A DNA stretch of 63,880 bases, counting the filler, from a bacterium (lineage in GTDB: Bacteria; UBA9089; CG2-30-40-21; SBAY01), in the NCBI GenBank assembly GCA_040757115.1. It is 5 parts of 5 records of this genome, joined end to end, with 100 filler letters (N's around TTAATTAATTAA, not from the genome) between each part and the next. Parts side by side here need not be neighbours in the genome. Positions count along the whole stretch, not along the records: positions 1 to 13,361 come from JBFLYA010000107.1; positions 13,462 to 26,821 come from JBFLYA010000108.1; positions 26,922 to 39,773 come from JBFLYA010000109.1; positions 39,874 to 52,609 come from JBFLYA010000110.1; positions 52,710 to 63,880 come from JBFLYA010000123.1. One strand, written 5' to 3'. The translations under genes were made by a program, and so were the position numbers. A model generated the notes under the pieces. That model was not told the origin of the DNA, did no database searches, and saw nothing but the letters and a program-made list of their open reading frames with translations. Shown in pieces: positions 165 to 60,512 of this stretch; positions within the stretch are counted from its first letter, which is position 1, and every line of letters starts with the position of its first letter.

Positions 165-446
165 GTAACCGTTCACCGCAGAGACGCAGAGGAACAGAGA
201 AGATATGGAAATAAATCAGATAACAGAAAAGATTATTGGTGTAGCCATTGAAATACTTATGACCTGCTTGCCGAATGTTCAGCCGGCAAGCCAGATTTGT
301 TAATCCATCCCTGATTTTCATCAGGGCAAGTTTAATGTTGTTGGACTCAAGAGCTTGCACTGATGAAAATCAGGGATGTTAAGCCTATCGTAAATAAATT
401 TTAATTTTCTTCTCTGCGTCTCTGTGTCTCTGCGGTGAACGGTTAC
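165..446 (+). mobile_element. GTAAC-TIR element, family C, carrying an internally deleted GxxExxY gene remnant
   Basis: TIR GTAACCGTTCAC...GTGAACGGTTAC; CCGCAGAGACGCAGAG arms; encodes [17 protein letters not shown]; near-identical to 21369-21661; no TSD. Confidence 0.85.
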
Positions 447-576
447 AAATTCGTGAATCGTGTCCGTTTTCCGTGTCCGTAATTAGGCTGAAGGTTTTTT
501 CTTCCTGTTGTCCTCTGCCTTCTGCCCTCTGTATTTATCCGTGTTAATCCGTGTTGATCAGTGGCTGAATAATTAC
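447..576. mobile_element. Right part of a family B element fused to the preceding family C element
   Basis: Matches ~1269-1398; ends CTGAATAATTAC. Confidence 0.8.
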
Positions 577-613
577 TGTAAATTCAATATTCAAAGTCTA
601 TCTTCAACTACCG

Positions 614-949
614 TTAGACCCCAACTCCTCTTGCAGATTGAGACAGAACTTCAGCAACCCAGGAACCGATATTTTTTCTATCCTTTTCAGCTGCAAGAAT
701 GACTTTGCGATGTTCCTCAGGTGATAGTCTAATAGTGAACCGTCCAGAAAATGGTTTTTCAGGTTTCTCTCTTCGCTCCACACAAAAAGACAAATAATCC
801 TCAATCGAATCCTCAAATGCCTTACGCAATTCCTCAACTGTTTTTCCTTGAAAAGTGATAACATCTCGAATGTTTATTACCTCTCCATGAAAAATATTAG
901 ATTCACTATCAAACTCGACCTGACCCAAATAACCCTTATATTCCATCAT
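614..949 (-). CDS. hicB: HicB-family antitoxin
   Basis: MEYKGY..VEFD....IFHGEV..IRDVITFQG..V.EL..AF..S..DY...PEKPFSGRF.IRLSP signature; overlaps hicA stop. Confidence 0.9.
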   Translation of the reverse strand: MMEYKGYLGQVEFDSESNIFHGEVINIRDVITFQGKTVEELRKAFEDSIEDYLSFCVERREKPEKPFSGRFTIRLSPEEHRKVILAAEKDRKNIGSWVAEVLSQSARGVGV

Positions 950-1200
950 AGTTCCACCTCTGATTCGGTTAAAAATCGACGCATGGAAATCACTGTTCCT
1001 TTATCTGTTTCTTTCCGGGGATGTGGTCGATGAAACACAGCACGCACTCCCTTGAGAGCAATACGTATTCGTGAGCCTCGCCCTTCACTGATTTCCGCCC
1101 CACAAGCCACAAGCAGACTTTCAATATCAGCCCATGGGATATTAGCACGGACTGGCTCTGTAAAAATGGCTTGTAAAGTTTTTCTATGTTTTGATTTCAT
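946..1200 (-). CDS. hicA: HicA-family toxin (mRNA interferase)
   Basis: W.DIE.LL...GA...EG.GSR...FHRPHP motif; directly upstream of hicB. Confidence 0.9.
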   Translation of the reverse strand: MKSKHRKTLQAIFTEPVRANIPWADIESLLVACGAEISEGRGSRIRIALKGVRAVFHRPHPRKETDKGTVISMRRFLTESEVEL

Positions 1201-1228
1201 AACCGTCCTATAACTTAATTACTCAAAC

Positions 1229-1398
1229 GTAACTATTCAGCCATAGATGGACACAGATGAAACATTGAAAATTCGTAAATCGTGTCCGTCTTCCGTGTCC
1301 GTAATTAGGCTGAAGTTTTTTTCTTCCTGTTGTCCTCTGCCTTCTGTCCTCTGTATTTATCCGTGCTAATCCATGTCCATCAGTGGCTGAATAGTTAC
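1229..1398. mobile_element. GTAAC-TIR element, family B (complete)
   Basis: GTAACTATTCAGCCA...TGGCTGAATAGTTAC; homologous to 5840-6026, 12833-13238 and 62523-62842. Confidence 0.85.
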
Positions 1399-1402
1399 AA
1401 GT

Positions 1403-1431
1403 AGTATAACATAGGTTTCAGGTTATGTCAA
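1403..1431 (-). promoter_or_regulatory. Sigma70-type promoter for hicAB
   Basis: TTGACA-17 bp-TATACT on the minus strand, 4 nt from the family B TIR. Confidence 0.65.
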
Positions 1432-1507
1432 ACTAAATTTCCTGGCGGAGGAATTCTCGGTAAAAAATTAGATAGAGGCTCATTATTCCTTATTTTTCTC
1501 TCAAAAT

Positions 1508-1685
1508 ATTTCGACCTGTGCAGGTAGAAAATTAAGGAAGCAGATTTTTAATAGTAAGCGGATTTAACGGATTTAGCGGAAAAAGAAATAAAAAAAATCC
1601 GCTCAATCCGTTTAATCCGCTTACAATAAAAAATGTAATCTGTTTAATCAATTATCCTTTTATTTCTAATTGCACAGGTGGAAAT
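1508..1685. mobile_element. Miniature IR element (ATTTCGACCTGTGCA ends) with nested GTAAGCGG...CCGCTTAC hairpin (1554-1624)
   Basis: 14/15 inverted repeats at 1508 and 1671-1685; related ends at 4234-4248 and ~16752. Confidence 0.6.
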
Positions 1686-1690
1686 TTTAC

Positions 1691-1719
1691 TTGACATCTA
1701 TATTAAAATTTGATACACT
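1691..1719 (+). promoter_or_regulatory. Sigma70-type promoter
   Basis: TTGACA-17 bp-TACACT with extended TG. Confidence 0.65.
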
Positions 1720-1768
1720 AAAGTTGGAAGATACAATTTAATCAATTACCAAAAGGGGGAAGAAAAAG

Positions 1769-4199
1769 ATGTTAAGAAAGATTTTATATCTATCAATTTT
1801 TATTTTTTTGTTACCATTTTTAGCCTTTGGTGAGGAAACCACTTCCTCAATTATCACGGTGGGTAAGGTCTACACAAAATGGAAAGGATTTTTAAACATA
1901 CCTTTCTGGACAGATGCAAGTGTTTCTTTTAATGGAATTTCCCCGGTTACTTTACCCAAAGAGGTAACTGCTTTTCAAATCGGGTTAGATTGGCGTGGTG
2001 AAAATGAGACTCGCGCATCTCAAAAATGCACCATTATTACCCGCATTGAGGCAGAAACTTATCCTAACTCAGGCAAGTGGACACTTTTATTTGAAGAGGC
2101 AAATGAAATGATAGGTCGAGGAGGAGTAATTGAGGAAAGACCTATTGTAACCAGAAATATCCCGCAGGAAAAACCAGAAGTAAGGTATAAAATTACGGTT
2201 AGAGCGACTATGCCGCTTGGGCAAGAACAAAAACCTGAGATTACTTATCTAACCGTGCTCCTTACCTCAAAGGCATATACGACTTACACCTCTATCCCGA
2301 TTCTTCCTATAATGCTCCTTCATGACCCTAATGGTGATGAGAGTTACATTACTCTACAACCAAATACCTCCATTTCTCACTTATTAAGTATTAATTTAGC
2401 CGGGCTGGAGGCAAAAATAGAAAACCAACAAAAGGTGTTTTTTGAAACACAAAAGGCTAAAATAGAAATTAATCCTATGTCAGAAAATACAGTAATGATA
2501 AATTTCATCTCTAAAGAGGCGATAACCTCCGCTGTTTCAAAAGACCCTTGTTTAATTGGAACGGGTCTTGGAGATACTTATGTGGTGATTAAAGATTTAC
2601 CCATAAAATTTAACTTCTCAAAGGCATTTACTCCATTAGGGGAAGAGAAAAGGGCTTTTTCCTGCTGTATCGTTAGTCCACAGGAGGCTGGACTTTCTCC
2701 AGAAAGAGGATTTGATGTTGTCTTAATACCAGCCGCAGCTTTGCGTTCTTACGATAAAGAGTGTCCAATCTTTGGCAATTGGGGACAATTAGGATTAGAT
2801 GACCAGATGAGACAACAATTGATAGAGATGAATATAGGGTGGGATAATATGGTCTCTCCAGAGGAAAAAGATGATGTTATTGACCTCGGCGAGGGATATT
2901 TAAACTTTAAAGACCAAACAAGAAAAGATTACACTCAAGTCTATTTGAACAAGGTTAGTTTTTTTTCAGAGATGGTCATAGAGCCCTATTTTGCAACAAC
3001 AGCAGGGATTCCTGTCTCAAGAGATAAGATGCTTACCGCAATCATCTTAAATGAATCACCTGTAACTAAAAGTGTTCCAAAGGATAATTTAATCGTTACT
3101 TTAGAAGATGACGATAGACAAAATATCCCGGGTGATTTCTTTACTTATCAGTTCTATCTGGATAAACGATTTGGCTCCTTATTAGTTATTACTAAAGATG
3201 ATAAAACTAAACCTCAGACTTTAGATTCACTTTATACCCGAAGTTTCTCATCTAACCCTAAGGAATACTGGACCGAAGACTTAAAAATCATACCCGTAGA
3301 GGTGTCAATTAAGGGATTAGTTACTTCGACTACTGGTGAAGGAATTGGTAGTGTTAGCTTAGAGGTAAGGTTAGATGATAAGGTGGTAAAAGAGGTGATG
3401 ACTAAAGCAGGAGGCACTTATACCATTGATGGATTAATACCAGGGAATAAGTATGTTTTGATACCCAATATCGCCGGCTATCAGTGTAAAACAATAGAAA
3501 TAGAACCTTTTTCGCATAATGAATTAATCCGTGAAATAAATGTAGTTTTAGAACCAATTGTGAAGGAGGTGTTACCAGAAGAAAAAGTTATAGTTGAAAT
3601 ACCACCTGCACCATTAATTCCTGAGCCTGTTCCTCCTAAACCTGAGATAGTGGCTGAGAAAGAAATATCTGAATTGTTAGTTAACAGCAATTTTTCATCC
3701 GCATTAGATGGCTGGAAATTAGTTAAGATTGGTGCAGGCAAAGAGATGTATGCCAGCGTCATCAGGAATGATTTTACCTATCCGTATGCCTTAGAGATTA
3801 AGCGCACAGGTTCTAACCGTGTTCGAGGTGAAATGGGCGTCCGACAGGTATTAAATAAGGATGTCTCTGGATATACTCAATTAGNNNNNNNNNNNNNNNN
3901 NNNNNNNNNNNNNNNNNNNNNNNNNNNNNNNNNNNNNNNNNNNNNNNNNNNNNNNNNNNNNNNNNNNNNNNNNNNNNNNNNNNNACGGGTTTTTATACGC
4001 TCCAAAGATTAATTATCCAGATATAGGGGAAAGGATTGAGCAGGATAAATGGATTATCTACACCTCAAATAATTTATTGGAGTGGACACCCAAACCCAAA
4101 CTGATTAAAGAGATAAAACTATCTGGTAGTGGTTGGGGATTTCACAGTAAGATTGCTAATGTAAAATTGATGGGGGAAAAAGGTTCTGAGCATAGATGA
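1769..4199 (+). CDS. Large secreted hypothetical protein (carboxypeptidase-regulatory-like domain, Pro-rich linker, possible carbohydrate-binding C-terminal domain); spans an N gap
   Basis: Signal peptide; 'IKGLVTSTTGEGIGSVSLEV...T...GTYTIDGL.PG'; after the gap another frame reads GFLYAPKINYP...GSGWGFHSKIANVKL..* to 4199, so the supplied 4012 end is probably a gap artefact. Confidence 0.6.
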
Positions 4200-4266
4200 A
4201 AATATACCATCTGTCCTATCGGCTTATTTCAATTGCACAGCTCGAAATAATTTGCAAAGGTGATTA

Positions 4267-5841
4267 ATGTCTTATCTCGTTTTAGCCAGAAAGTATCGAC
4301 CGAAGATTTTTAGTGAATTAATCGGTCAACCACATATTAAAGAAACCTTAAGCAATGCCATTACTTCTAATCGGTTAGCCCAGGCATACCTATTCACGGG
4401 TTCACGAGGCACGGGAAAAACTACAACTGCCAGAATATTGGCTAAATGTCTAAATTGCCTTAACGGGATGTCGATAACCCCTTGTGGTAAATGTTCTTCC
4501 TGCGAGGAGATTGCTGGTGGCTATTCAATGGATGTTATAGAAATAGATGGGGCATCAAATCGTGGAATTGATGAGATTCGAGAATTACGAGAAAGGGTTA
4601 AATTTCTCCCCGCGAAGGCAAAATATAAAGTTTATATCATTGATGAAGTGCATATGTTGACCAATGAGGCTTTTAATGCCTTATTAAAAACCCTCGAAGA
4701 ACCACCTCCTCATGTTATATTCGTTTTTGCAACTACTGAACCTCATAAAGTTCCCCAGACTATCCTTTCAAGATGTCAACGGTTTGATTTTAAAAGAATA
4801 CCAATATCTGAAATTTGTAAATTATTAAAATACATTGCAGAAGAAGAGAAAATCGAAATAGACGATTTAACATTAATTTCTATCGCCAAAGCCGCAGAAG
4901 GAAGTATGCGAGATGCAGAATCTATTTTAGACCAGGTAGTTTCTTATTGCGGGGATAAGGTTTCACAGGAGGATGTCGTAACTATCCTCGGCATAGTAAA
5001 ACAAGAGGTGTTATTTACCTTTTGCGAGGCAATAATTGCCGCCTCAGCAAATAAAATAATTCAACTCTTAAATGAGATAATTGATAAAGGATTAGATTTA
5101 TCACAGTTTGTTCGTGAGTTGATGATGCATCTACGGAATTTACTTATAATTAAAACAGGTTGCCGTCCTGATTCAGTCATTGACCTGACTTCAGAAGGGA
5201 TAAAATTATTAGAAAGCCAATCATCACAACTTGGACAGGAACAACTTTTAAATCTGATTGAAGCACTTCAAAAGGCAAATGAAAATATGCGATTATTTCC
5301 ACTCCAGGCAAGATTAATATTAGAAATAGCCTTGATAAAGATGATTCAGGGAAATAAGCCCAGGATAGAGGAAGTGAAACAAGAGGTTGTTTGGACTCCG
5401 CCAAAAGAATTATTTGTGAAAGAACCAATAGAGGAGGTTAAAGCACCTGTTGTTACCCCGAGTAAGGAATTTGAGAATCAATCTTTAGAGTTTTCTTTAG
5501 AGCAGATAAAAAATATTTGGCCAGAAATCCGAAAAAATATTAAAAATGAAAAACCGGCTTTAGATACCTGTCTGGCATTGGCTGAGATTACGGATTTAGT
5601 TAATCAGACCATTATCATTGGGTTTAAAAGGGGTGATTCATTTCATAAAGAAAGAATAGAACGCCTTGAGAACAAAGACTTTATTCAAGAACAGCTTAAA
5701 AAAATAACAAACTGTAACCTGCACATCAAAACGATATTTATTGATGGAGCATCAATAGAGGAGGGAAAAACTGTAGTCAGTCCGAAGGTATTGGATATGG
5801 TTTTTAAAGTTTTCCCGGAGGCACAGATAATAGAAGGTTAG
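4267..5841 (+). CDS. dnaX: DNA polymerase III subunit gamma/tau
   Basis: [19 protein letters not shown], Zn-binding cysteines, [12 protein letters not shown]. Confidence 0.97.
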
Positions 5842-6026
5842 AGGGCAGAGGGCAGAAGGCAGAGGGCAGAGGGCAGAGGGCAGAGGGCAGAAGGCAGAGG
5901 GCAGAAGGCAGAAGGCAGAGGACAACAGGAAGAAAAAACCTTCAGCCTAATTACGGACACGGATACCGGACACAATTTACGAATTTTCCGTGTTTCATCC
6001 GTGTCTATCTGTGGCTGAATAATTAC
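5840..6026. mobile_element. Family B element, one end missing, with expanded AGAGGGC/AGAAGGC heptamer tract
   Basis: ~11 heptamers at 5840-5920; ends CTGAATAATTAC. Confidence 0.8.
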
Positions 6027-6029
6027 TTT

Positions 6030-6100
6030 TTATATTTGCTGCTCTTTGGAGGAAATTGACCCGTTTAAAAACTACAATTTCCTGGTTTTGCAGAACTCTA
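6030..6100. mobile_element. Right end of family E element (TTTTGCAGAACTCTA)
   Basis: Matches 23740-23822. Confidence 0.7.
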
Positions 6101-6133
6101 ATTTACCAAAGAAAAGGAGGGATAAGTTAAAAA

Positions 6134-6454
6134 ATGGAGTTTCAAAACATTCTTAAACAAGTTCAAGAGATGGGAACACAATTTAAAAAGGTTCAAAAAG
6201 AACTGGCTTCTAAAAAAGTCACCGCCAGTGTTGGTGGTGGGATGGTTCAAGTTACGGCTAATGGACAAAAAGAAATCATCAGTATTACCATAGAAAAAGC
6301 CATAATTAATCCTCAAGAAAAGCAGATGTTAGAGGATTTAGTTTGTGCCGGGGTAAATGAGGCACTTTCAAAGGCACAAGATTTAGCCGTAGAACAAATG
6401 ATGAAAACGACTGGTGGGATGAACATCTTTGGATTATTAAAAGGGTTGGTTTGA
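6134..6454 (+). CDS. ybaB: YbaB/EbfC nucleoid-associated protein
   Basis: [27 protein letters not shown]; dnaX-ybaB-recR synteny. Confidence 0.95.
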
Positions 6455-6458
6455 AAAA

Positions 6459-7055
6459 ATGTATTTAACCCCTTCTATGACCAAATTAATAGAAGAATTA
6501 TCTAAATTACCTACAATTGGGCCAAAAACTGCCTCCCGATTAGCATTTTATATCTTGAAAACATCACCCGAAGAGACAAAAAGATTAGCCAGAGCAATCC
6601 TTGAGGTAAAAGAAAAGGTTAAAAATTGCTCGATTTGCTATAACATCACAGAACAAGACCCTTGTGATATTTGTCAGGACATTAAAAGGGATAAAAAAAT
6701 AATCTGTGTGGTAGAACAGGCTCAAGATATAATGGCGGTGGAAAAGACAAGGGAATATAAAGGAACTTACCATGTCTTGGGCGGGGCTATTTCACCCCTG
6801 GATGGTATTAGTCCAGAACATCTACGGATAAAAGAATTAGTCAAAAGGATTGAGAGTAATCCATTAGAGGAAATGATTATCGCAACCAATCCAAATGTAG
6901 AAGGTGAAGTAACCGCACTTTATCTGACTAAATTAATCAAACCGCTGGGAATAAAATTAACCCGAATAGCCTATGGCATACCTGTTGGTGGAGATCTGGA
7001 ATATGCCGATGAGGTTACATTAGCTAAGGCGCTGGAAGGAAGGATACAACTATAG
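6459..7055 (+). CDS. recR: Recombination mediator RecR
   Basis: [14 protein letters not shown]4 zinc finger, [13 protein letters not shown], Toprim ATNPNVEGE. Confidence 0.97.
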
Positions 7056-12216: not shown

Positions 12217-12385
12217 GTAAGCGTTCAGGGTGTAATGAAGGAAAAATGGAAAAGTTGGGGAAAAGGGGAAATTATTTATTTATTTCCAGTCTCCGTATAT
12301 CCAGTTTAAAATCAGCAAAGTTGATTAACAAACCCATCTTTTTATCTACTGCTTTCAGATAGGATCTTACCTGTGCATAATACTT
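12217..12385. pseudogene. Solo TIR followed by the C-terminal fragment of a GxxExxY gene (minus strand)
   Basis: GTAAGCGTTCAG at 12217; minus frame YYAQVRSYLKAVDKKMGLLINFADFKLDIRRLE. Confidence 0.65.
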
Positions 12386-12544
12386 CTGATTTTATTGATT
12401 AGTATTTCTCTTTCTTCCTAAAAAAGTATTGACAAGCGTTGAGGGTATATATTATACTATCTGAAAGGGTATCGGCGTTTGAGGTAAATGAAGGTATTTA
12501 ATAAAGGGAAAAAGGAATTATAATCAAGGATCTTTCGAAAAGAT

Positions 12545-14864: not shown

Positions 14865-15410
14865 GTAACTATTCAGCATACCAAGCAAGTAGGAAGTAGG
14901 AAGTAGGAAAGGGGGAAAATACTTCATACTATTTTACTCTTAATTGATTTGATTAAACCTATAAGCATCCTACTCACTTCTTCAGATATATCCCAAATGG
15001 ATTGAAAATCTGGCAGATAATTAAGATCTTTAGATAGAATTAGATAATACCTTTCCTACTCTCCTACTTCCTACTTTCAGGGAAATCTCCCCCATTTCAC
15101 TGACGCATTACCTTAGTTCTTCAAGAGAGCCCTGGCTTATATTATAGGCATTTAACTTATTCTTTATGCCTTGTTTCTTAAAACCTTCTGCAATATTTGC
15201 TGGAATAGAAACAGCCGCTTTGCACATCTGTTGCACCAATCCATATTTTTCTTCAGTGGGGAAGTTTTTGGTTATTTCGTATATTCTTATCACTAAATGA
15301 TGGCTTTTTTGCCATACTACAAGTTGTCTAAAATCATCTAACTTCTCATTCATTTTCTTCCCCTTTCCTACTTCCCTACTCTCCTACTTTCCTACAGGGT
15401 GAATAGTTAC
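14865..15410. mobile_element. GTAAC-TIR element carrying a four-helix-bundle gene between AAGTAGG/CCTACTT heptamer arms
   Basis: GTAACTATTCA...TGAATAGTTAC; perfect 8-bp TSD ACTTTTCT. Confidence 0.9.
14924..15353 (-). pseudogene. Four-helix-bundle protein (TIGR02436/23S-IVP/Avd-like) interrupted by a 61-bp insertion
   Basis: FRQLVVWQKS..L...IY.IT..FP.EEKYGL..QM..AAVSIPANIAEG; continues RYYLILSKDLNY...MLIGLIKS after removing an insert flanked by TACCT repeats (15048, 15109). Confidence 0.85.
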
Positions 15411-21368: not shown

Positions 21369-21661
21369 GTAACCGTTCAGGGGGTAATTTACCGCAGAGA
21401 CGCAGAGGAACAGAGAAGATATGGAAATAAATCAGATAACAGAAAAGATTATTGGTGCAGCCATTGAAATACTTATGATCTGCTTGCCGAATGTTCAGCC
21501 GGCAAGCCAGATTTGTTAATCCATCCCTGATTTTCATCAGGGCAAGTTTAATGTTGTTGTACTCAAGAGCTTGCACTGATGAAAATCAGGGATGTTAAGC
21601 GTATCGTAAATAAATTTTAATTTTTTCTCTGCGTCTCTGTGTCTCTGCGGTGAACGGTTAC
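21369..21661 (+). mobile_element. Family C element with GxxExxY remnant
   Basis: TIRs; TSD CTGGAATT/CTGAAATT (7/8); empty site present in the paralogous spacer at 20889. Confidence 0.92.
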
Positions 21662-32492: not shown

Positions 32493-32723
32493 TTCCAGGT
32501 TCATAAGAAGCGGAAATTTTCCTTATAGGGCTATTAACTGGAAGTCTACATAGGATAATACCCATAAATAAGGCATGAGAATAATCGTTCCGTTAGGAAC
32601 ATAATATCGGTAGGAATAGATAGACAAACCAATCAGTTCCGTAGATGGTAGAAAATTTATGGAAAACCATTTACCAATATATTGTCCCTATGGGACATTA
32701 ATGAAGGATGAGGTAGAATTTTC

Positions 32724-32977
32724 GTAACCGTTCAGATAGTAATTCACCGCAGAGACGCAGAGGAACAGAGAAGAAATTGAAATAAATCAGACAACAGAAA
32801 AGATTATTGAGGCAATTATTGTCCTACATAGGACCTCAAAACCAAATTTGTTAATCAATCATGATATGTCGGTTTTCAAAAGCTTGCTCTGATGAAAATC
32901 CGTGATGGAATGAGGCATGTGGTAAATAGTTTTTAATTTTTTCTCTGCGTCTCTGTGTCTCTGCGGTGAACGGTTAC
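32724..32977 (+). mobile_element. Family C element with degenerate GxxExxY remnant
   Basis: TIRs and CCGCAGAGACGCAGAG arms; EINQTTEKII; no TSD. Confidence 0.82.
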
Positions 32978-35269: not shown

Positions 35270-36088
35270 ATGAAAATAGCCATAAGTGGTAAAGGAGGCG
35301 TTGGCAAAACAACATTAAGTGTTTTGTTAGCCTCATTGTATGTTGAAGAAGGAAAAAAAACCTTATTAGTCGATGCAGACCCGGATAGTAATTTAGCCGC
35401 TTGTCTTGGACTTTCACAAGAAATAGTCAATCAAATTACGCCTATTTCTAAAATGAAAGCACTTATTGAAGAACGCACCGGGGCAAAATTAGACCAGACA
35501 GGAACTTTATTTAAAATAAACCCCCAGGTAAATGATATTCCTGATAGATTTAGTCTAAATTTTAATGGGATTAAACTTTTAATTATGGGGACTGTTGAAA
35601 AAGGTAAATCTGGTTGTATGTGTCCGGCTAATACCCTTCTTAAAAATTTAATGAAAGAACTCTTAGTTAAAAAAGATGAGGTAGTTATTTTAGACATGGA
35701 GGCAGGAATTGAACATTTAGGCAGAGCGACGGCAGGTAATGTTGATGTATTTTTAGTCGTAGTAGAACCTGGACTTAGAAGTATTCACACCGCTAAAAAT
35801 ATTCAAAGATTAGCCAGAGATATTGGAATTAAAAATGTCCTGATTGTGAGCAATAAGGTAAGAAATGAACAGGATTACAGTATCATCACCCAGGAGGTAA
35901 AACCTCTTGAAATTATTGGTTCTATTTCATATCATGAAGAATTAATCAAAGCCGACCTCATGGGAAAAGGTATATTACCTATCCCAAATCCAAAAATTAA
36001 AGAAGAGATAGAAAATATAAAGTATATGATAAAAAGAAGTGAAGAAAGAGGAGAAGAGAGTAACGGTAAAGATGGGATACAATTTTAG
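35270..36088 (+). CDS. cooC: CO dehydrogenase/ACS nickel-insertion ATPase (CooC/AcsF family)
   Basis: SGKGGVGKTT, DADPDSNL, GCMCP, DMEAGIEHLGR. Confidence 0.92.
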   Translation: MKIAISGKGGVGKTTLSVLLASLYVEEGKKTLLVDADPDSNLAACLGLSQEIVNQITPISKMKALIEERTGAKLDQTGTLFKINPQVNDIPDRFSLNFNGIKLLIMGTVEKGKSGCMCPANTLLKNLMKELLVKKDEVVILDMEAGIEHLGRATAGNVDVFLVVVEPGLRSIHTAKNIQRLARDIGIKNVLIVSNKVRNEQDYSIITQEVKPLEIIGSISYHEELIKADLMGKGILPIPNPKIKEEIENIKYMIKRSEERGEESNGKDGIQF

Positions 36089-36485
36089 TAGCTGTTCACC
36101 GCACAGACACAGAGACGCAGAGAAAAAAATTAAAATCTATTCACCAGAGACAGAAATTTCCTTTTTTTGTGTGCCTTTCGGGTCTTTCGTTGTTTATTAA
36201 TCTTCTAATACTTACTTTTAACTAACTGTTTTTAAGCCTTTTTAAACACCGAAAAACGCGATAAACACGAAAAAAAAGTAACCGTTCACCGCAGAGACAC
36301 AGAGACGCAGAGAAAAAATTAAAATTTATTGATAACTATTCAGCCACAGATGGACACAGATGAAACACTGATTTTATTTTTTATCCGTGCTAATCCGTGT
36401 TAATCAGTGGCTGAATAGTTACTTTATTTCTATGTTTTCTCTGTTCCTCTGCGTCTCTGCGGTAAAGGATTACTTGAACGGTTAC
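36088..36485. mobile_element. Composite family C element (second C end at 36278, mini-B at 36332-36422)
   Basis: Outer TIRs; perfect TSD CAATTTTA. Confidence 0.88.
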
Positions 36486-42570: not shown

Positions 42571-42793
42571 GTAACTGTTCACCGCAGAGACGCAGAAAAA
42601 AAATTAAAATCTATTCACCCGAGACAGAAATTCCCTTTTTTTTGTGCATTTTGGGTCTTTCGTTGTTTATTAATCTTTTAATACGGACTTTCGACTAACT
42701 GTTTTTAAGCCTTTTTAAACACCGAAAAACGCAAAAGATATTTTCCTCTCTGTTCCTCTGCGTCTCTGCGGTAAATTACCAGCTGAACAGTTC
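42571..42793. mobile_element. Family C element
   Basis: GTAACTGTTCAC...CTGAACAGTTC; perfect TSD GTATCAGC; core shared with 36088. Confidence 0.88.
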
Positions 42794-42802
42794 GTATCAG
42801 CG

Positions 42803-52778: not shown

Positions 52779-52784
52779 AAAATT

Positions 52785-53094: not shown

Positions 53095-54021
53095 ATGGAA
53101 AATGCAAAATGGAAAATGTTAGCGGTTATTATTCTTCTTGGTTATTCTTTAAATGTAGATGCCGCAATTTATAAAAAGGCAGGGACAACTGTTGGTCAGG
53201 TGTTAGAATTTGGTGTTGGAGCAAGGGCTTGTGCTATGGGTGAGGCATTTACCGGACTGGCAGATGATTTTAGCGCCTTCTACTGGAATCCCGCAGGTAT
53301 TGCTCAAATTGAAGATTTAGAGTTTAATTTTATGCATAATGATTGGTTTCAAGGGATAAGATATGAACTTGTTTCCACTGTTTTACCATTAGAAGAAGAA
53401 TTAGGAGCAATGGGCTTAAGTATCATCGTCTTAAAAGCAGATGACATCGTGGGGCGAGATACAAATGGAAATTTTACCTCAAATTTTGAAGCAAAAGACA
53501 GTGTTATGAGCCTTAGCTTTGGTCAAAGATGGAATGACAAAATATTAATTGGGGCAACGATTAAAAGGATTAACCTGCATATAGAAAACGAAGGAGGGAC
53601 ACAGTTTGCCTTTGATGCAGGTGGATTATATAAATTTCAGAATACTGATTTAACTCTCGGCGCAGTTGTCCAGAATATTGGTAAGAAGATAAAATTTATT
53701 GAAAAAGAGGAGCGATTACCTTTAAATTTCAAACTTGGCATTCTGTATAAGATGTTAGAAAAAAGAGTGTTACTAACATCAGATTTGAGTAAATCTATTG
53801 ACCGTGCTCTAAAACTCAATCTGGGCACAGAAATAATTATTAATTCAATCACAAAATTCAGGTTTGGGTATAACTCAACTAATGATGCTGACAATGGTTT
53901 TACTGCGGGTATAGGACTTAAGATAAAAGATATAATTGAGTTAGATTATGCCTACATCCCTTATGGAGAACTTGGTGATTCTCAACGAATTTCGCTCACC
54001 ACGAAATTTAAGGTTGAATAA
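53095..54021 (+). CDS. PorV/PorQ-family outer-membrane beta-barrel
   Basis: L..GVGARA.AMGEAF.GLADD.SA.YWNPAG; DYAY.PYG.LG...R.S. Confidence 0.88.
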   Translation: MENAKWKMLAVIILLGYSLNVDAAIYKKAGTTVGQVLEFGVGARACAMGEAFTGLADDFSAFYWNPAGIAQIEDLEFNFMHNDWFQGIRYELVSTVLPLEEELGAMGLSIIVLKADDIVGRDTNGNFTSNFEAKDSVMSLSFGQRWNDKILIGATIKRINLHIENEGGTQFAFDAGGLYKFQNTDLTLGAVVQNIGKKIKFIEKEERLPLNFKLGILYKMLEKRVLLTSDLSKSIDRALKLNLGTEIIINSITKFRFGYNSTNDADNGFTAGIGLKIKDIIELDYAYIPYGELGDSQRISLTTKFKVE

Positions 54022-54030
54022 TTTTTTAAT

Positions 54031-54915
54031 ATGAACCCGATACTTAAAAAAATTTTTCCATTGATTCTATTCGTTATATTTGTAATTTATCTCTTTTATG
54101 CAACCCTTTACCCTTTTAATTTCTCTTTCCAGGAAGATAATATTCTTTATAATCTTAATAGGGTAAATATTATCCCTTTCAGTTGTTGGGGTGGCAGAGA
54201 AATTTCATGGTCGGATGTCGTCAGTAATCTTCTTCTTTTTATTCCCTATGGTTTCTTACTAAACTGGGAATTACAAAATAGAAACATTGGAAAACTTAAA
54301 TCTAAATTAATATGTATCATCTCTGCTTTTTTACTTAGTTCGACATTGGAATTTTTACAATTGTTTTCTTTGAGAAGAAGAACCGGAATGACGGATATTG
54401 TCAATAACACGATTGGGAGTTGGATAGGTTGTGTTTTAAGTAATGATTTTTTAGTTTCTTTTAAAGATAAACTCTTTCATCAAATAAATCTACTCCGTCG
54501 TGAAAATCCTTTGCTTGTTTATTTAGGTTTATATAGTTTATTAATCATGCTTGTATTTATCTATCCCTTCGATATATCTATTGCGAGGGAGAATATATAC
54601 TATGCGATTAAGAATTTTAACCTGACGCCTTTTTACTATCGGGGACATCTTAATATTTCTTTTAGTGAAAATGGGATTAATATAATTTTATTTATCATCT
54701 TTGGTTTTCTTGTTTATGTTTCATTTAGAAGATATTACTCGAAAATATTAACGCTATTTATCACCATATTCATAGGATTTTGTCTGGCAACTTTAATTGA
54801 ATTTACTCAGATAATTATACCCAACAGAGTTCCAGATATAACTGATATTATTTTCTATATGATAGGAACTTTACTCGGCGACCTGCTCGCTTTTGTAACT
54901 TTATACAAAAAATAG
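54031..54915 (+). CDS. Tandem VanZ-domain membrane protein
   Basis: Two copies of N.LLF.P.G...E..Q.....R....D. Confidence 0.8.
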   Translation: MNPILKKIFPLILFVIFVIYLFYATLYPFNFSFQEDNILYNLNRVNIIPFSCWGGREISWSDVVSNLLLFIPYGFLLNWELQNRNIGKLKSKLICIISAFLLSSTLEFLQLFSLRRRTGMTDIVNNTIGSWIGCVLSNDFLVSFKDKLFHQINLLRRENPLLVYLGLYSLLIMLVFIYPFDISIARENIYYAIKNFNLTPFYYRGHLNISFSENGINIILFIIFGFLVYVSFRRYYSKILTLFITIFIGFCLATLIEFTQIIIPNRVPDITDIIFYMIGTLLGDLLAFVTLYKK

Positions 54916-54922
54916 GAAAATT

Positions 54923-56200
54923 ATGAAATATAAATCCACTTTCCTTTTAACTTTTGCTATTCTTTCAGGAATAATTATAGGCATTGCCATTTTATTTCGT
55001 CCTGATATATATGTTCTTGCTGGTAGTTGTTTCGCCATAATCACTCTAATACTCATCTTTATTCGGCCATATTTTGGTATTATTATTTATTATGCGACTC
55101 TTTTTATGCTCCCGGAGGAATTAGCAGGAACTCCTGCTCCCTTGATAATATGTTTAATCACAACCTTATTTTGCCTTAAAGATGTTATTAAAACTCGAGG
55201 ATATAAATTTGTCTTTGGGAAACAGAGTTATTTCCTATCAGGATTATGGTTAATGATGGTAGTATCCGTGGTTTTTGCCTACGAAAAAAGCCATTGTTGG
55301 AAACCATTATTAAGTTTTAGTAAAACATTTATATTTTATTTCGTAACAATTAATCTTATAAGGACAAAGAAAGATTTTAAAATACTACTCTGGGCAATCG
55401 CAGTTATCTTTGGCATTTTAGCCTTAAAGTGTAATGTTCATTGTTTTCTATTTGGACCTGGACGCGTTGCCGGTGCTGGGGGTGATAATAATCATTTTGC
55501 CTTAGCGTTAATAATGGCATTACCTTTTAGTATTTATCTATTCTTTTCAGAAAATCTACTCCTTAAAAAACTCCTTTTAGGAATAATCTCATTGTGTATC
55601 ATTGCAACGGTTATTCTTACTTTTTCAAGAGGTGGTTTTATTGGATTAATTGGGGTATTAAGTTTAATATTTTTAAAGGCAAGAACTAAGGCATTAGCTC
55701 TCTATGGAATTGTATTTTTAGTTCTATTGTTCATAGTTTCAATACCTTCAGGATATATAGAAAGACTAAACACTATCTTAGAGTATCAGAAAGATGATTC
55801 TGCTATGGGAAGGATATACGCCTGGAGAGCAGGTGGACAGATGATATGGGAACGACCACTAATAGGAATAGGATTGGGTAATTTCGCTCCCTTAGCCCAT
55901 ACCTATGATTCCCGATTAGATAAATCTATGGAGGCTCATAACTCATTTATCCATTTAGCGGGTGAGTGTGGTTTGATTTCATTATTACTCTTTATTATGT
56001 TAATATCTACTTCGATGATAGATTCATATAGAATCAGAAGAAATATAGATGAAAGATTTTCTAAGATAACAGTTCCTGCTTGTAAAATAATAGAGGTAAG
56101 TCTTGGTGGATATGTGTTAGCGGGTAGTTTTCTAAGTGAGGTAAATTTTGAGCTTGTTTATCTTTTATTTGCATTGAGTGTGATACTTAAACGATTGTAA
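54923..56200 (+). CDS. O-antigen ligase/polymerase-family (Wzy_C) protein
   Basis: D.N.FA, TFSRGG, SAMGR...W, P..G.G.GNF, AHNSFI. Confidence 0.85.
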   Translation: MKYKSTFLLTFAILSGIIIGIAILFRPDIYVLAGSCFAIITLILIFIRPYFGIIIYYATLFMLPEELAGTPAPLIICLITTLFCLKDVIKTRGYKFVFGKQSYFLSGLWLMMVVSVVFAYEKSHCWKPLLSFSKTFIFYFVTINLIRTKKDFKILLWAIAVIFGILALKCNVHCFLFGPGRVAGAGGDNNHFALALIMALPFSIYLFFSENLLLKKLLLGIISLCIIATVILTFSRGGFIGLIGVLSLIFLKARTKALALYGIVFLVLLFIVSIPSGYIERLNTILEYQKDDSAMGRIYAWRAGGQMIWERPLIGIGLGNFAPLAHTYDSRLDKSMEAHNSFIHLAGECGLISLLLFIMLISTSMIDSYRIRRNIDERFSKITVPACKIIEVSLGGYVLAGSFLSEVNFELVYLLFALSVILKRL

Positions 56201-56622
56201 GCGTTCAGCAGTCATCTATCAGTTGTCAACTGATGGCTGACCGCTGGGTGTATGTAAAATTTGTGGGTAAAAAATATTGAGGAATATTCATCTTTTTGCC
56301 GATATAAAGAAATAGATGAAATTCAATGCGAAAATTACAAATTCCAAGCACCAAATCTCAAATAAATTCCAAATTCCAATTTCCAAATAAGTTTCAAATT
56401 CCAAAGATTATATGACAACGAGAGGAATTTATTTAGATTTCTCAATAATTGAAGAAAAAATCTTTTTCTTGTCTTGTTTGGAATTTTGAATTTTGGTCAT
56501 TGAAATTTATTTGTAATTTGGTATTTGTGATTTGGAATTTTGTGATTTTCAATTGATTTAACCGTTAATTCAGACGGGTAAATAGTTACCCATAAATTTT
56601 ACACGCACCCCTGACCGCTTAC
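56197..56622. mobile_element. 52-bp minimal GTAAC-TIR hairpin element with a nested 365-bp element
   Basis: GTAAGCGTTCAG...CTGACCGCTTAC; perfect TSD AAACGATT. Confidence 0.88.
56246..56610. mobile_element. Nested GGGTG-TIR element with AAATTCC/GGAATTT heptamer arms
   Basis: 25-bp TIR (22/25) GGGTGTATGTAAAATTTGTGGGTAA; perfect 9-bp TSD CTGACCGCT. Confidence 0.88.
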
Positions 56623-56754
56623 AAACGATTATACCAGAACACATAATATTCATCTCCCCTAATGTAGCGAAGGTCGATATATTCCTCAAGAATATAAAAA
56701 GTTACAACGGGAAGATGTTTAAATATATCAAATTAAATACGAGGAGGTAGGAAG

Positions 56755-57771
56755 ATGAAAAAGAACACAATAAATATCTTAACAGCGTTGATAGTAAGTC
56801 TGTTTTTAATTGGATTAACTATCACACCGTCAAATGCCACAGGGTGGCCAGATTTGAAAATAGCAAAGGTGAAAAGACCAGAAGGCGTAAATCAACCACT
56901 TCCACCACTGCCACCAGTGCCAACAAAGGTAGTGATGAGTGACCCAGATGGCGATTCACAATTAAGCGATATCTACGAGTGGGAAGTCATTCCGGGTATT
57001 GGAGTCCCCACTGTAGATGTTGTTCAACTTGAGGCAGGGATAGGAATAAGTATGGGAAGTCCGGCGGTAACACTTCGACTCACATTTAACCAATGGACAG
57101 ATATATCCACAGTCATTGGATATATTGACCTTGATACAGACCAGGACCGGTACACAGGATGGGGTCCGTGGAAATATCCTGAAATTGGAGGAGGGTTTGA
57201 ATATGCTCTAGACTTCTTTTCCCTTCCTACTGTTTCAATTTACGATATAAATTGGAACTTGATGGGAGAACTAACCGCGGTTCTGGGAACAGATACCATT
57301 GAAATTACTATTCCATTAGGGATGCTTGGTAATGATGATGGGGTAATGGATTTAGAAATGATAGTGGGAAACTGGGATGCTCCAACAGATCTGGCGCCAC
57401 CCTCAGATGCCTATAGCGCTCACTCAATACCAACAAACCCTGTGGTCAGAATGTTTAGTAACGATGAGGTGTATACAACTGGCGAGACACTGAATGCCGA
57501 GGTTAAGGTAGTTAATGACGGAGCTACAATGACGGTTGATGTCCACATTTATGCCCAGGGATTCCATCCCTCTCCACTATGGGGACAGGTTCCACTAGTT
57601 CTCATGGATGATGTAGTTATTCCTGCAGGATTTAATCTGACCGTGCCGGTGATAAGTTACCCCATTACACCTGCTTCACCACAAGGTATTACAAAATTAG
57701 GAGCAAGAATCTGTGACCCAACCACAGGTGATATTTTGAGTGATGGTTCTAAGTTAATCATTATCGAGTAG
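56755..57771 (+). CDS. Secreted hypothetical beta-rich protein
   Basis: GGAGG RBS, signal peptide, Pro-rich linker, IDLDTDQD..TG and E..IPL..LG motifs. Confidence 0.75.
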   Translation: MKKNTINILTALIVSLFLIGLTITPSNATGWPDLKIAKVKRPEGVNQPLPPLPPVPTKVVMSDPDGDSQLSDIYEWEVIPGIGVPTVDVVQLEAGIGISMGSPAVTLRLTFNQWTDISTVIGYIDLDTDQDRYTGWGPWKYPEIGGGFEYALDFFSLPTVSIYDINWNLMGELTAVLGTDTIEITIPLGMLGNDDGVMDLEMIVGNWDAPTDLAPPSDAYSAHSIPTNPVVRMFSNDEVYTTGETLNAEVKVVNDGATMTVDVHIYAQGFHPSPLWGQVPLVLMDDVVIPAGFNLTVPVISYPITPASPQGITKLGARICDPTTGDILSDGSKLIIIE

Positions 57772-57790
57772 ATGACGAATTCTCTCTCGT

Positions 57791-57824
57791 CTGTTCAATG
57801 GTCATTGAAATGACCATTGAACAG
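57791..57824. terminator. Perfect hairpin between convergent genes
   Basis: CTGTTCAATGGTCAT-TGAA-ATGACCATTGAACAG. Confidence 0.6.
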
Positions 57825-57829
57825 CGGGA

Positions 57830-60283
57830 TTAAAAATTCCCTTTAACTAACCCCTTAAATATCCCAAATTCTAATTGATATACCTTCAATAATTCCTCAT
57901 CAGGAATAATACTGTCAGATATACCCATTTTTGCGTCAGTAAATCTATCTGCAAAGGATAAAACCAGTAAAGTTCCAGTTCCTACTTTAACGCTCACACC
58001 AATTGTCTGATTCTCCGGGGTAAAGAAAATAGGATTGCCACCTTCAATAATGGCTGAATTTACCTCTGATGGATAATACTTATTAAATGGTTGGGCATAG
58101 AGATGGGATGAGTAGATGGATTGATTAATCTTTACGCCAAAGGCAGATAGAAGTGAATTAGCGGTAGAACTACCGTTAGACAGACTATCCAGGAGCAATA
58201 TTTTTCCACCAGAATGGAGATAATCTTTAATCCAGGATATATCCTTTGATGTAAACTTCTTTTTAGGTTTGATGATGACTACGACTTCAGGTTTTTCCTT
58301 TTTAATATCTTCGCAGACTATTGGAAAATACCCCAGTCGTAATACCCATTGATAAAACATCTCAAAACTACACTCGTTATCCTGGACAAACCCTTTGATT
58401 GGGAGATTAAGGTCAGAATGTTTTGACTCAAAACAAATCTGAATTGGCTTAGTGTGAGGTTTTGGCAATGGATAATTTAATTTATTCACGAAGGTAAAAC
58501 CGACCATCCCTAAAGCCGTCATAAAGATTATCAGAGGCAAAGATTGAATATTGAATTTAGAAATAAATAGCCCAACGACGAATAATCCTATTCCTAAAAT
58601 CAAGAATAAGTAGTTTAACCGGCTCAGAAAATTTTCTCTATTTAACCAATTTAGTGTGCCTAAGAGTAATTCAGGTTTGCCTGGAATAAATGCCGAGAAG
58701 TTAGAGAAGCAGGTTGAATCTGTAAACCCCACCACCCGACCCTTGCCATATTTTACCCCAATTGTTTGAATAAAAGTCCCAAAATCCATCTTCGTGCTAT
58801 CTATAACCTGGGGATAAAAATTACTGCTTGAATAATCAATATCTAACGACTTTAAGCCAGAAGATAAAATGACATTTTCCCATAAATAATCTTTTGGCTC
58901 AACAGAACTGGAAGTGGCAAAGAGAAAACAAGGCATATTTTGAACGATAGGATGTGGTAGAAGTTTTGGAGGATAATATACTTGCTCGAATTTTTTCTCA
59001 ATATCAAATAGGCAATCATACCGAAAATAAAAACCAAATCTTTTTGCTATTGGATTAAGATAACAAGAAGAGCCAAAGACATTGGTATGTTCCCCTAATA
59101 AAAATAACCCACCACCAGCCTTAACAAATTCTACAATTGCCTCTATCTCCTTATCTAAAAACCTGGATGTAGGAATCTTCAAAACCAGAATATCATAATT
59201 ACTTAATAATTTAGATGTTATTGAACCCAAATTGCGGTCCACTTTATAATAATAACTCAAATAGTCTGTCATACAGTAATAATTATAACCTGATTCCTGT
59301 CCATACCAGGTTGTATCGTATTTTCTGGTGGTTTTTTCCCAATCGCTATGTGCCTCATCTATGAGAATTCTTCCTTGTCCGGGGATACCAGGGTCATGAA
59401 ATCCAAAATAACCAATGATAAATAACACCCCCAGACTGATTAAAACTAACCCTTTTATTTTTAAGGGGTTAAATGGTGGAGGTGTTATTTTAAGCTTAAA
59501 AAACCGACATAATAAAAATAGATAAGGAATAAAACTAAGTGTAATGATTGTTGGATTCCAGAAGAGAAAAACCTTATCTGCTTCCTCTTCATCAGGCACA
59601 AAATACTCCAGATAAAGAAATATTAATATCATTAAGATATACCTGAATATGAGGTAAAGCACGGTGGTGATGGTAAAAAGTCCGGTGGTTATCCACAATC
59701 TTCTGGAGGTAGAAAAGAGCCGAAGTAATATTATCCCTCCAATTAAAAGATTTAAGGCAGGAAAAACGCCCAATTTATCCCAGGTGGTAGGGAATTCATA
59801 GAGTTTCCGCATTGTCTCAATAAAGATAGTATCTTGACTTAAACTCACCGGCAGGGTTAAAAATTTTAGTATCTGGTAAATTACAGGGGTGAAGGCAGGA
59901 CATTGTTGCCATTTAGCCGTAAAACACATATAAGGATGCCCAATAACACTCTGGACACTCAAAAATCCCCCCACTAACCATAAACTACAAACTAATGGCG
60001 CCAATCTGCGAAAAGGAAGTAGTAAGAAACTTAAACCTAAAACTGCTGGACCTAAATTATAAGGGAAAGGCAATATAAGATAAGCAATTAATAATGGCAG
60101 GCAAAAAAAAGGGTAGCGTTTATCAATATTCTCAAGTTTTACCTGTCGCAAACCAAATAAAAGAAAAATAATGGCTAATCCAATTAAAATAAAAGTCCCA
60201 AAATAATTAGTTTTAATATAAAGGGATGAAGAGAAAAGCCAGGTTGTTGAAATTAAAATCATGCAAAACCAGATACCAAACAT
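57830..60283 (-). CDS. Polytopic membrane protein with DUF4350/GATase-like extracytoplasmic domains
   Basis: Many TM segments; ILIDEAH, L..YDILV, FVKAGGGLFLLGEH, G.GRVV...DS. Confidence 0.7.
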   Translation of the reverse strand: MFGIWFCMILISTTWLFSSSLYIKTNYFGTFILIGLAIIFLLFGLRQVKLENIDKRYPFFCLPLLIAYLILPFPYNLGPAVLGLSFLLLPFRRLAPLVCSLWLVGGFLSVQSVIGHPYMCFTAKWQQCPAFTPVIYQILKFLTLPVSLSQDTIFIETMRKLYEFPTTWDKLGVFPALNLLIGGIILLRLFSTSRRLWITTGLFTITTVLYLIFRYILMILIFLYLEYFVPDEEEADKVFLFWNPTIITLSFIPYLFLLCRFFKLKITPPPFNPLKIKGLVLISLGVLFIIGYFGFHDPGIPGQGRILIDEAHSDWEKTTRKYDTTWYGQESGYNYYCMTDYLSYYYKVDRNLGSITSKLLSNYDILVLKIPTSRFLDKEIEAIVEFVKAGGGLFLLGEHTNVFGSSCYLNPIAKRFGFYFRYDCLFDIEKKFEQVYYPPKLLPHPIVQNMPCFLFATSSSVEPKDYLWENVILSSGLKSLDIDYSSSNFYPQVIDSTKMDFGTFIQTIGVKYGKGRVVGFTDSTCFSNFSAFIPGKPELLLGTLNWLNRENFLSRLNYLFLILGIGLFVVGLFISKFNIQSLPLIIFMTALGMVGFTFVNKLNYPLPKPHTKPIQICFESKHSDLNLPIKGFVQDNECSFEMFYQWVLRLGYFPIVCEDIKKEKPEVVVIIKPKKKFTSKDISWIKDYLHSGGKILLLDSLSNGSSTANSLLSAFGVKINQSIYSSHLYAQPFNKYYPSEVNSAIIEGGNPIFFTPENQTIGVSVKVGTGTLLVLSFADRFTDAKMGISDSIIPDEELLKVYQLEFGIFKGLVKGNF

Positions 60284-60306
60284 CTTTTTACCTCCACTGA
60301 ACTGCT

Positions 60307-60512
60307 GTAACTATTCACCGCAGAGACGCGGAGACACAGAGAAAAAATTAAAATCTATTGGCTATACGCTTAATTCCATTTCTAATAGACCTGGACCTAA
60401 TGTCTTATGTATTTCAATTGCTGTACCAATAATTTTTTCTGTTATCTGATTTATTTCCATGTTTTCTCTGTTCCTCTGCGTCTCTGCGGTGAATTACTAT
60501 CTGAACGGTTAC
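60307..60512 (-). mobile_element. Family C element with internally deleted GxxExxY gene
   Basis: Minus strand [27 protein letters not shown] fused to [10 protein letters not shown]; TIRs; no TSD. Confidence 0.88.

What the first reader, a model, noticed from the sequence alone, without database searches (positions are those of the whole stretch)
165..60512. GxxExxY genes reduced to N- and C-terminal stubs inside CCGCAGAGACGCAGAG hairpin arms
Seen: family C copies keep both ends of a GxxExxY (TIGR04256, PD-(D/E)xK-like) gene while the middle is lost. At 60307 the minus strand reads [37 protein letters not shown]. Copies at 165, 21369 and 32724 keep EINQ.TEKII and the VN.F* tail, and a further C-terminal stub lies at 12290-12385. 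Deleting the ORF middle while keeping the cis arms is how non-autonomous derivatives arise from an autonomous element. Inference: the arms plus GxxExxY gene form their own genetic unit, and this nuclease-fold protein of unknown function may act on the arms or be their standard cargo.
Basis: partly seen in the sequence, partly recalled or inferred. Interest (0 to 1): 0.78.

Follow-up and report, generated by a model that had tools for sequence, protein, structure and literature searches.

The report
Decayed nuclease-gene cassettes riding on MITEs
The short gene stubs are real leftovers of a small nuclease gene that sits between its own inverted arms, but here they multiplied because the whole cassette lies inside an ordinary miniature transposon, not demonstrably through the nuclease itself.

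Summary
The copy at 60307-60512 is a clean internal deletion of an intact GxxExxY gene. The copies at 165, 21369 and 32724 keep the start and tail of the gene around a diverged middle.

Inner layer: GxxExxY gene plus arms built of repeated 7-9-mers is a conserved unit. It holds in 14 of 20 near-full genes here and in 64 of 76 loci from many phyla, against 3 of 145 shifted controls. The arm word follows the protein clade. Intact cassettes lie in sense between host genes (43 against 4). Four-helix-bundle (23S-IVS-type) genes here are packaged the same way.

Outer layer: the GTAAC...GTTAC ends carry 8-bp target-site duplications (33 of 106 against 0 of 424 controls). Their first 15 bases equal the ends of an IS66-family (ISBst12-type) insertion sequence in the same genome. 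So the hundreds of stubs are IS66-type MITEs with a decaying passenger cassette. In the sister genome a second cassette type rides a different MITE with 5-bp duplications.

What the nuclease does to its arms remains open. I found no G:U bias that would show RNA pairing. Earlier agents of this scan reported the cassette design in at least 30 other genomes.

The parts
165..447 (+). MITE copy. Outer inverted repeats at 165-175 and 437-447, inner arms at 176-203 and 408-435, GxxExxY N-terminal stub from ATG 205, tail with stop at 402-404, inner 25-nt hairpin at 306-378.
   Evidence: This form has 26 full-length hits in the genome, 11 of them at 97% identity or more.
21369..21661 (+). MITE copy of the same form. 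It is flanked by CTGGAATT and CTGAAATT, an 8-bp target-site duplication with 7 of 8 bases matching.
32724..32977 (+). MITE copy of a second form. The start codon is lost, and the N-terminal stub and tail are diverged.
   Evidence: This form has 35 full-length hits in the genome.
60307..60512 (-). Clean internal deletion of an intact-type cassette (27 N-terminal codons joined to the last 10 codons). The sister genome holds it at the orthologous place.
   Evidence: G001:C14 matches at 98% over 1401 bases, and that genome has 4 more full copies at 97-99%.
36278..36485 (-). Copy that keeps the arms and the tail only. Its core is replaced by another small hairpin element.
   Evidence: 10 full-length hits.
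36088..36277 (-). Adjacent partial copy of the tail-only form.
42571..42794 (-). Tail-only form. GTATCAGC stands on both sides if the right end is set one base inward.
   Evidence: 21 full-length hits.
12218..12403 (-). C-terminal stub of a different GxxExxY subfamily, with its own arm (GGAAAAG words) and outer end GTAAGCGTTCAGG.

Best explanation
The element has two nested layers. The inner layer is an old, widespread cassette: a roughly 125-codon PD-(D/E)xK (GxxExxY) gene between two inverted arms made of reiterated short words, here C-R-C-N-R-A-G. The outer layer, found in this genus and in a related genus of the same order, is a pair of IS66-family (ISBst12-type) terminal inverted repeats (GTAACCGTTCA...) that encloses the cassette. 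The composite behaves as a MITE: a transposase supplied in trans inserts it and makes 8-bp target-site duplications. The passenger gene is dispensable for this, so it decays by internal deletion, and each deleted form is then copied further. That is what the stubs are.

What is shown: the deletions, the multi-copy state of each deleted form, the inverted repeats, the target duplications, and an insertion sequence with the same ends.

What is inferred: that this transposase family does the moving, and how the cassette came to lie inside the MITE.

For the cassette itself my best guess is inference only, at about 40%. It is a promoter-less selfish gene read through from host operons, and its arms pair and carry clade-specific words that its own protein binds or cuts.
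For: Deletion derivatives. Each stub form is multi-copy in the genome, with 26, 35, 4, 10 and 21 full-length hits. The same deletion form occurs in the sister genome at 4 more places at 97-99% identity.

Census of this family in the genome: 215 left arms, 343 right arms and 136 paired elements. Of these, 5 are gene-sized with both gene ends, 52 are short with both stubs, and 45 keep the tail only.

Target-site duplications: 29 perfect and 4 with one mismatch among 106 elements, against 0 of 424 shifted comparisons with at most one mismatch.

A 1563-bp element at G000:C198:3061-4623 has the same 15-base ends (GTAACCGTTCAGGTA) and a DDE_Tnp_IS66 frame (PF03050, 136.5 bits, 2 stops). A relative holds an uninterrupted 541-codon copy with ends GTAACTACTCAGG. 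A published ISBst12-group element has ends GTAACTGCTCAGCA and an 8-bp direct repeat (PMC12898284, passages read).

In genus g5 the short armed elements end in GTAATAGTTCA / GTAACAGTTCAGC. 5 of 14 have duplications with at most one mismatch.

Independent second case: a CGCAAAG-armed cassette with one shared internal deletion, outer ends CTCGATGTTCAAGTTTTTT, and perfect 5-bp duplications in 5 of 7 copies.

The cassette as a unit: 14 of 20 near-full genes here have flank inverted-repeat score 16 or more. With 200-nt flanks all 15 complete genes show arms. The controls were 22 of 858 ORFs of like size, of which 9 are GxxExxY, 11 are four-helix-bundle genes and 2 are other, and 6 of 1495 random segments. 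In named genomes, 64 of 76 loci score 12 or more against 3 of 145 shifted controls.
Against: The IS66-type copy in this assembly has two stops, and the other five PF03050 matches are fragments, so no working transposase is seen here. 73 of 106 elements show no duplication. None of the four gene-bearing copies I looked at shows one. The insertion sequence itself shows none either. I did not test moving by recombination between the many copies. For the 5-bp family no autonomous partner was sought. It is unexplained why cassettes sit in the core of two or more unrelated MITE types.
Confidence: 0.75

Rival explanations
1. The GxxExxY nuclease is the mobility enzyme, the CCGCAGAG arms are its cis sites, and the stubs are its non-autonomous derivatives, in the manner of a RAYT with its REPINs.
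For: The gene and the dispersed repeats share the same arms. The catalytic residues E23, D63, E73 and K75 are invariant in 14 diverse members. The arm word is kept although silent sites are saturated: 53 of 78 loci against 0 of 146 controls, with 4-fold identity 0.26. The word follows the protein clade: 13 of 14 LLES-clade loci against 0 of 17 others (related genomes are not independent).
Against: The duplications lie at the outer repeats, which match an IS66-family element. A PD-(D/E)xK nuclease alone has no strand-transfer activity (general knowledge). G009 has 105 arm matches but only a 74-residue fragment of the cognate gene. Four-helix-bundle genes, which have no nuclease fold, are packaged the same way. 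Cassettes without outer repeats number 0-7 per genome in the relatives searched.
Confidence: 0.12
2. The cassette works at the RNA level, like a 23S rRNA intervening sequence. The arms pair in a read-through host transcript, RNase III cuts the stem, and the cassette mRNA is released while the host transcript is left in two pieces.
For: Intact cassettes are co-oriented with the upstream neighbour in 60 of 75 cases and the downstream neighbour in 57 of 73. Between co-directional neighbours, 43 lie in sense and 4 in antisense. The arms abut the start and stop codons. The Coxiella IVS has a 28-bp terminal stem, RNase III excision and tandem heptamers before its four-helix-bundle ORF (PMC4990558, passages). 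Genes of that family have the same arms here.
Against: Stem mismatches show no excess of G:U over A:C on the sense strand: 79 against 83, or 25 loci against 23. The arm word is conserved beyond what pairing needs. 9 of 53 loci have arms of flipped polarity. The 23S gene of this genome has only short expansions, and no GxxExxY or four-helix-bundle match lies in it.
Confidence: 0.3
3. The many copies arose by recombination, gene conversion or assembly artefact rather than by transposition.
For: 73 of 106 elements lack a duplication. The genome is in 462 contigs that often break at repeats.
Against: 29 perfect 8-bp duplications, each of a different sequence, against 0 of 424 controls. The copies sit in different unique flanks. 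The sister genome has its own copies.
Confidence: 0.04

Closest known systems
MITEs derived from IS66-family insertion sequences (ISBst12 group; for example ISDge4, PMC12898284)
   Same: Terminal inverted repeats that begin GTAAC...TCAG, 8-bp target-site duplications, no transposase of their own, hundreds of copies, and a full-length element with the same ends in the genome.
   Different: The core is not a deleted transposase gene. It is a foreign cassette with its own inner arms and a decaying GxxExxY gene. Four-helix-bundle cassettes and other GxxExxY subfamilies lie inside the same kind of ends.
ORF-bearing intervening sequences of 23S rRNA (Coxiella burnetii, Leptospira; S23p / four-helix-bundle ORF; PMC4990558)
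   Same: A small ORF is enclosed by terminal inverted repeats that contain tandem heptamers whose number varies. The same protein family sits in such arms in this genome.
   Different: These cassettes lie outside rRNA. The ORF here is a PD-(D/E)xK nuclease. RNase III cutting is untested, and no G:U bias was found.
REPIN-RAYT systems
   Same: A nuclease-type gene is flanked by the same hairpin-forming repeats that are dispersed through the genome.
   Different: RAYTs are HUH/Y1 transposases and mostly single-copy, and REPINs leave no target duplication (all recalled). Here the fold is PD-(D/E)xK, the genes are multi-copy, and the spread carries a DDE-type signature.

Membership tests
GxxExxY protein (TIGR04256 / PF13366 PDDEXK_3) | HMM score at or above the 35-bit cut-off | tested here: met
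   Intact copy L001 scores 162.5 bits. 47 places in the genome are over the cut-off. The window stubs themselves are below it (23.8 bits) or give no hit, so they are remnants, not members.
GxxExxY protein (TIGR04256 / PF13366 PDDEXK_3) | G-x-x-E-x-x-Y motif and PD-(D/E)xK catalytic residues on a restriction-endonuclease-like fold | tested here: met
   G20, E23, Y26, D63, E73 and K75 are invariant in 14 diverse members. The AlphaFold2 model has pLDDT 96.3. The best structural neighbours are generic PD-(D/E)xK proteins: Cas4 SSO0001 with Z 7.5, rmsd 3.8, 97 aligned; Hjc with Z 6.4.
MITE (non-autonomous DNA transposon) | Terminal inverted repeats, target-site duplication, no transposase, many copies | tested here: met
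MITE (non-autonomous DNA transposon) | An autonomous element with matching ends in the same genome | tested here: met
   G000:C198:3061-4623 has identical 15-base ends and a PF03050 frame. That frame has 2 stops.
IS66 family, ISBst12 group | Single DDE_Tnp_IS66 transposase frame, ends beginning GTAA, 8-bp direct repeats | tested here: met
   PF03050 at 136.5 bits, and one long frame in a 1563-bp element. The 8-bp duplications are seen on the MITEs but not on the insertion-sequence copy itself. The family features are taken from PMC12898284.
23S rRNA intervening sequence | Inserted in a helix of the 23S rRNA gene | tested here: not met
   All window copies lie between or beside protein genes. 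The 23S gene (C423:9709-13122) holds short expansions only.
23S rRNA intervening sequence | Excised from the transcript by RNase III at the terminal stem | not testable with these tools
   No RNA data were available.
REPIN-RAYT | HUH/Y1 (IS200/IS605-type) transposase | tested here: not met
   The protein is PD-(D/E)xK.

The most novel reading that the evidence does not exclude
GxxExxY cassettes, and their four-helix-bundle sisters, are an undescribed class of selfish hairpin cassettes found across bacteria and archaea. Each protein clade recognises its own reiterated arm word (C-R-C-N-R-A-G for the LLES clade). The cassette is expressed by read-through in host operons. It spreads by settling in palindromic places such as rRNA helix tips, intergenic hairpins and the centres of MITEs. 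That would explain why it turns up in the core of at least two unrelated MITE families here.
Probability: 0.3. Interest if true: 0.85.

Novelty: new variant of a known kind. Interest (0 to 1): 0.6.

Why it matters
GxxExxY and four-helix-bundle proteins are among the commonest unexplained multi-copy small genes in prokaryote genomes. Full-text searches found 3 papers for 'GxxExxY'. For PDDEXK_3, PF13366, TIGR04256, TIGR02436 and PF05635 they found 1 and 3 papers. None of the listings or passages I saw mentions the arms, and the 2012 survey lists the function as unknown.

This genome separates two things that look like one. The first is an ordinary IS66-type MITE burst, which explains the stubs and much of the assembly fragmentation. 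The second is an older gene-plus-arms unit whose arm word is under sequence selection and follows the protein clade. That gives a concrete candidate substrate for biochemistry. It also warns against reading every armed stub as evidence that the nuclease is a transposase.

Tried and rejected
- RNA evidence: no RNA holder was listed for an intact cassette with its flanks.
- Solved structures: a profile search gave no sequence match at E up to 1. Foldseek gave nothing at E 0.001 or better.
A narrower alignment A2 worked. The 79 named loci therefore sample mainly the LLES clade.
- A crude test of arm similarity (6-mer Jaccard over 110-nt flanks) against protein identity was weak: rho 0.12, with 104 of 2000 permutations as high. 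The word-based test was clearer.
- Looking for empty sites in the sister genome was uninformative. At 32724 its contigs break at the element. At 60307 the element is shared. At the C334 cassette the neighbourhood is rearranged.
- ORF-bearing IVS in this genome's 23S rRNA: none was found.
- For the relatives I had no matched control. 22 of 25 loci with both flanks scored 30 or more on that scale. One locus (L035) has direct rather than inverted arms.
- I did not identify the transposon family behind the 5-bp-duplication MITE or the TTCGACCTGTGAAATAGG ends.
Full report
OBSERVATION. The window is a chain of contigs of one 4.32-Mb, 36.8% G+C genome, joined by runs of N. The arm CCGCAGAGACGCAGAG (up to 2 mismatches) occurs 18 times in the window against 0 in 100 shuffles, and 598 times in the genome.

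I aligned the window copies with intact genes found elsewhere in the genome. Copy 60307-60512 (minus strand) is an intact-type copy with one clean deletion; it keeps 27 N-terminal codons and the last 10. Copies 165, 21369 and 32724 keep about 25 N-terminal codons and the tail around a diverged middle. Copies 36278 and 42571 keep only the arms and the tail.

By HMM, only the 60380-60460 stub registers (E 4.4e-5, 23.8 bits, under the 35-bit cut-off). The stubs at 205 and 21421 give nothing, and an intact copy gives 162.5 bits. The stub at 12287-12403 belongs to another subfamily with other arms.

THE INNER UNIT. A six-frame search of the genome with TIGR04256 gave 122 matches at E up to 10. Of these, 47 were over the cut-off and 20 covered at least 100 of 116 positions.

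Of those 20, 14 have a flank inverted-repeat score of 16 or more. Five of the six misses are N-terminally cut copies whose upstream side is replaced by another element. The sixth, C211, has its partner arm 161 nt downstream.

Controls were as follows. 22 of 858 ORFs of 100-160 codons reach score 16, and of those 22, 9 are GxxExxY genes, 11 are four-helix-bundle genes (TIGR02436, the ORF family of 23S rRNA intervening sequences) and 2 are other. 6 of 1495 random segments reach it. Two unrelated small-protein families therefore share one kind of packaging: a gene between inverted arms of reiterated 7-10-mers, with a different word for each paralog group.

In 30 unnamed relatives, 20 hold the family. 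Of the 25 loci with both flanks, 22 score 30 or more on the scale. The subfamily of the window keeps its CACCGCAGAGACGCAGAGG arms in three other genera without any GTAAC outside them.

In 79 named loci from many bacterial phyla and two archaeal bins, 64 of 76 with both flanks score 12 or more, and 48 score 16 or more. Shifted controls gave 3 and 1 of 145. No GTAAC ends and no flanking duplications were apparent there by eye.

THE ARM WORD. In the named loci, 53 of 78 carry at least two C-R-C-N-R-A-G words in each arm in inverted order, against 0 of 146 shifted controls. The genes meanwhile share a median of 58% protein identity and 26% identity at four-fold sites, which means the silent sites are saturated. 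The word is therefore under selection as a sequence, not only as a pairing partner.

Among this genome and its relatives the word goes with the protein clade. 13 of 14 loci of the 'LLES' clade have it, and 0 of 17 of the other clades do (two loci that my regex missed are LLES variants; related genomes are not independent). A cruder 6-mer test was weak.

The catalytic residues are invariant. The fold is a confident but generic PD-(D/E)xK, with no solved relative by sequence.

THE OUTER LAYER. In this genome the cassette is enclosed by GTAACCGTTCA ... TGAACGGTTAC. Of 106 unique elements with both outer ends, 29 are flanked by a perfect 8-bp direct repeat and 4 by one with a single mismatch. None of 424 shifted comparisons has one mismatch or fewer. 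In the window, 21369 has CTGGAATT / CTGAAATT, and 42571 has GTATCAGC on both sides if the right end is set one base inward.

The same 15 bases (GTAACCGTTCAGGTA) bound a 1563-bp element with a DDE_Tnp_IS66 frame at G000:C198. That frame has two stops. A relative has an uninterrupted 541-codon copy with ends GTAACTACTCAGG. A published ISBst12-group member has ends GTAACTGCTCAGCA and an 8-bp direct repeat (PMC12898284, passages).

The stubs are thus IS66-type MITEs. Each deleted form is itself multi-copy (also for the sister genome), so deletion came first and copying afterwards. The census of the family: 136 paired elements, 5 of them gene-sized with both gene ends, and 52 short with both stubs.

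Arm counts per genome (up to 1 mismatch) are 377 and 352 in this genus. In four genomes of genus g5 they are 218, 116, 105 and 48. Elsewhere among the 31 genomes searched they are 13 or fewer. The g5 elements end in variant repeats of the same type, GTAATAGTTCA / GTAACAGTTCAGC, and 5 of 14 have duplications. One g5 genome with 105 arm matches has only a fragment of the cognate gene.

A SECOND CASE. In the sister genome a CGCAAAG-armed cassette with one shared internal deletion occurs in at least 7 copies. It lies inside different ends (CTCGATGTTCAAGTTTTTT), with perfect 5-bp duplications in 5 of 7. Cassettes in the core of MITEs are therefore recurrent here.

HOW THE CASSETTE ITSELF WORKS. Intact cassettes in the named loci lie in sense with their neighbours: 60 of 75 upstream and 57 of 73 downstream. 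Between co-directional neighbours the split is 43 in sense to 4 in antisense. This points to expression by read-through.

The MITE-borne stubs show only a weak bias: 52 of 92, 55 of 87, and 34 to 18. That is what is expected if a transposase places them.

Stem mismatches show no excess of G:U over A:C on the sense strand (79 against 83). This gives no support to a constraint that acts only on the sense RNA. 9 of 53 loci have flipped arm polarity, and some genes sit between two complete hairpins.

I therefore rate an RNase III / IVS-like mode at about 0.3. I rate the nuclease as the mover of the stubs at about 0.12. As my best guess I hold that the protein recognises its own arm word.

COMPARISON AND VERDICT. 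The stubs are explained by a known kind of element, a MITE of an IS66-family insertion sequence, with an unusual passenger. The passenger resembles ORF-bearing 23S rRNA intervening sequences, which have a terminal stem, tandem heptamers and RNase III excision (PMC4990558, passages). It lies outside rRNA, and this genome's 23S gene has none. Full-text searches found no paper that describes arms around GxxExxY genes (for these I saw listings and a few passages only). Earlier agents of this scan reported the cassette design in at least 30 other genomes. The MITE layer, the clade-specific word and the G:U test are what this window adds.

Noticed in passing
window 14925-15410 (minus strand): A four-helix-bundle (TIGR02436) gene lies inside GTAACTATTCA ends and GTAGGAA-word arms. 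It is broken by an insert of about 70 bp that repeats its own arm words. The same broken form is seen on two other contigs (C90, C450).
   Followed up: partly
window 1229-1398: A gene-less 170-bp hairpin element with ends GTAACTATTCAGCC and ACAGATG-type words. It resembles the arms of another GxxExxY clade (I5; compare L048 and L058).
   Followed up: no
window 1505-1688: Nested inverted repeats. An outer TTCGACCTGTGCAGG-type pair encloses a GCGGATTTA-word hairpin. The same outer type (TTCGACCTGTGAAATAGG) encloses a further GxxExxY subfamily elsewhere in the genome.
   Followed up: no
window 32523-32700: A separate repeat of about 178 bp lies just upstream of the 32724 copy. It has many copies at 89-97% identity in the sister genome.
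   Followed up: no
L007 2225-2431 (G000:C408): A repeat of about 207 bp with more than 25 copies at 93-98% identity in the sister genome.
   Followed up: no
L150 (G000:C423:9709-13122): The 23S rRNA gene is 3414 nt long against a 2925-position model. It has several short expansions, for example 77 nt near model position 228. None holds a GxxExxY or four-helix-bundle frame.
   Followed up: partly
L035, L054, L122: Variants of the design. L035 has direct instead of inverted arms. In L054 and L122 the gene lies between two complete gene-less hairpins.
   Followed up: no
L076, L079, L137: Three Acidobacteriota bins carry the cassette directly upstream of what looks like the same host gene start, each with a different version of the arm words.
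   Followed up: no
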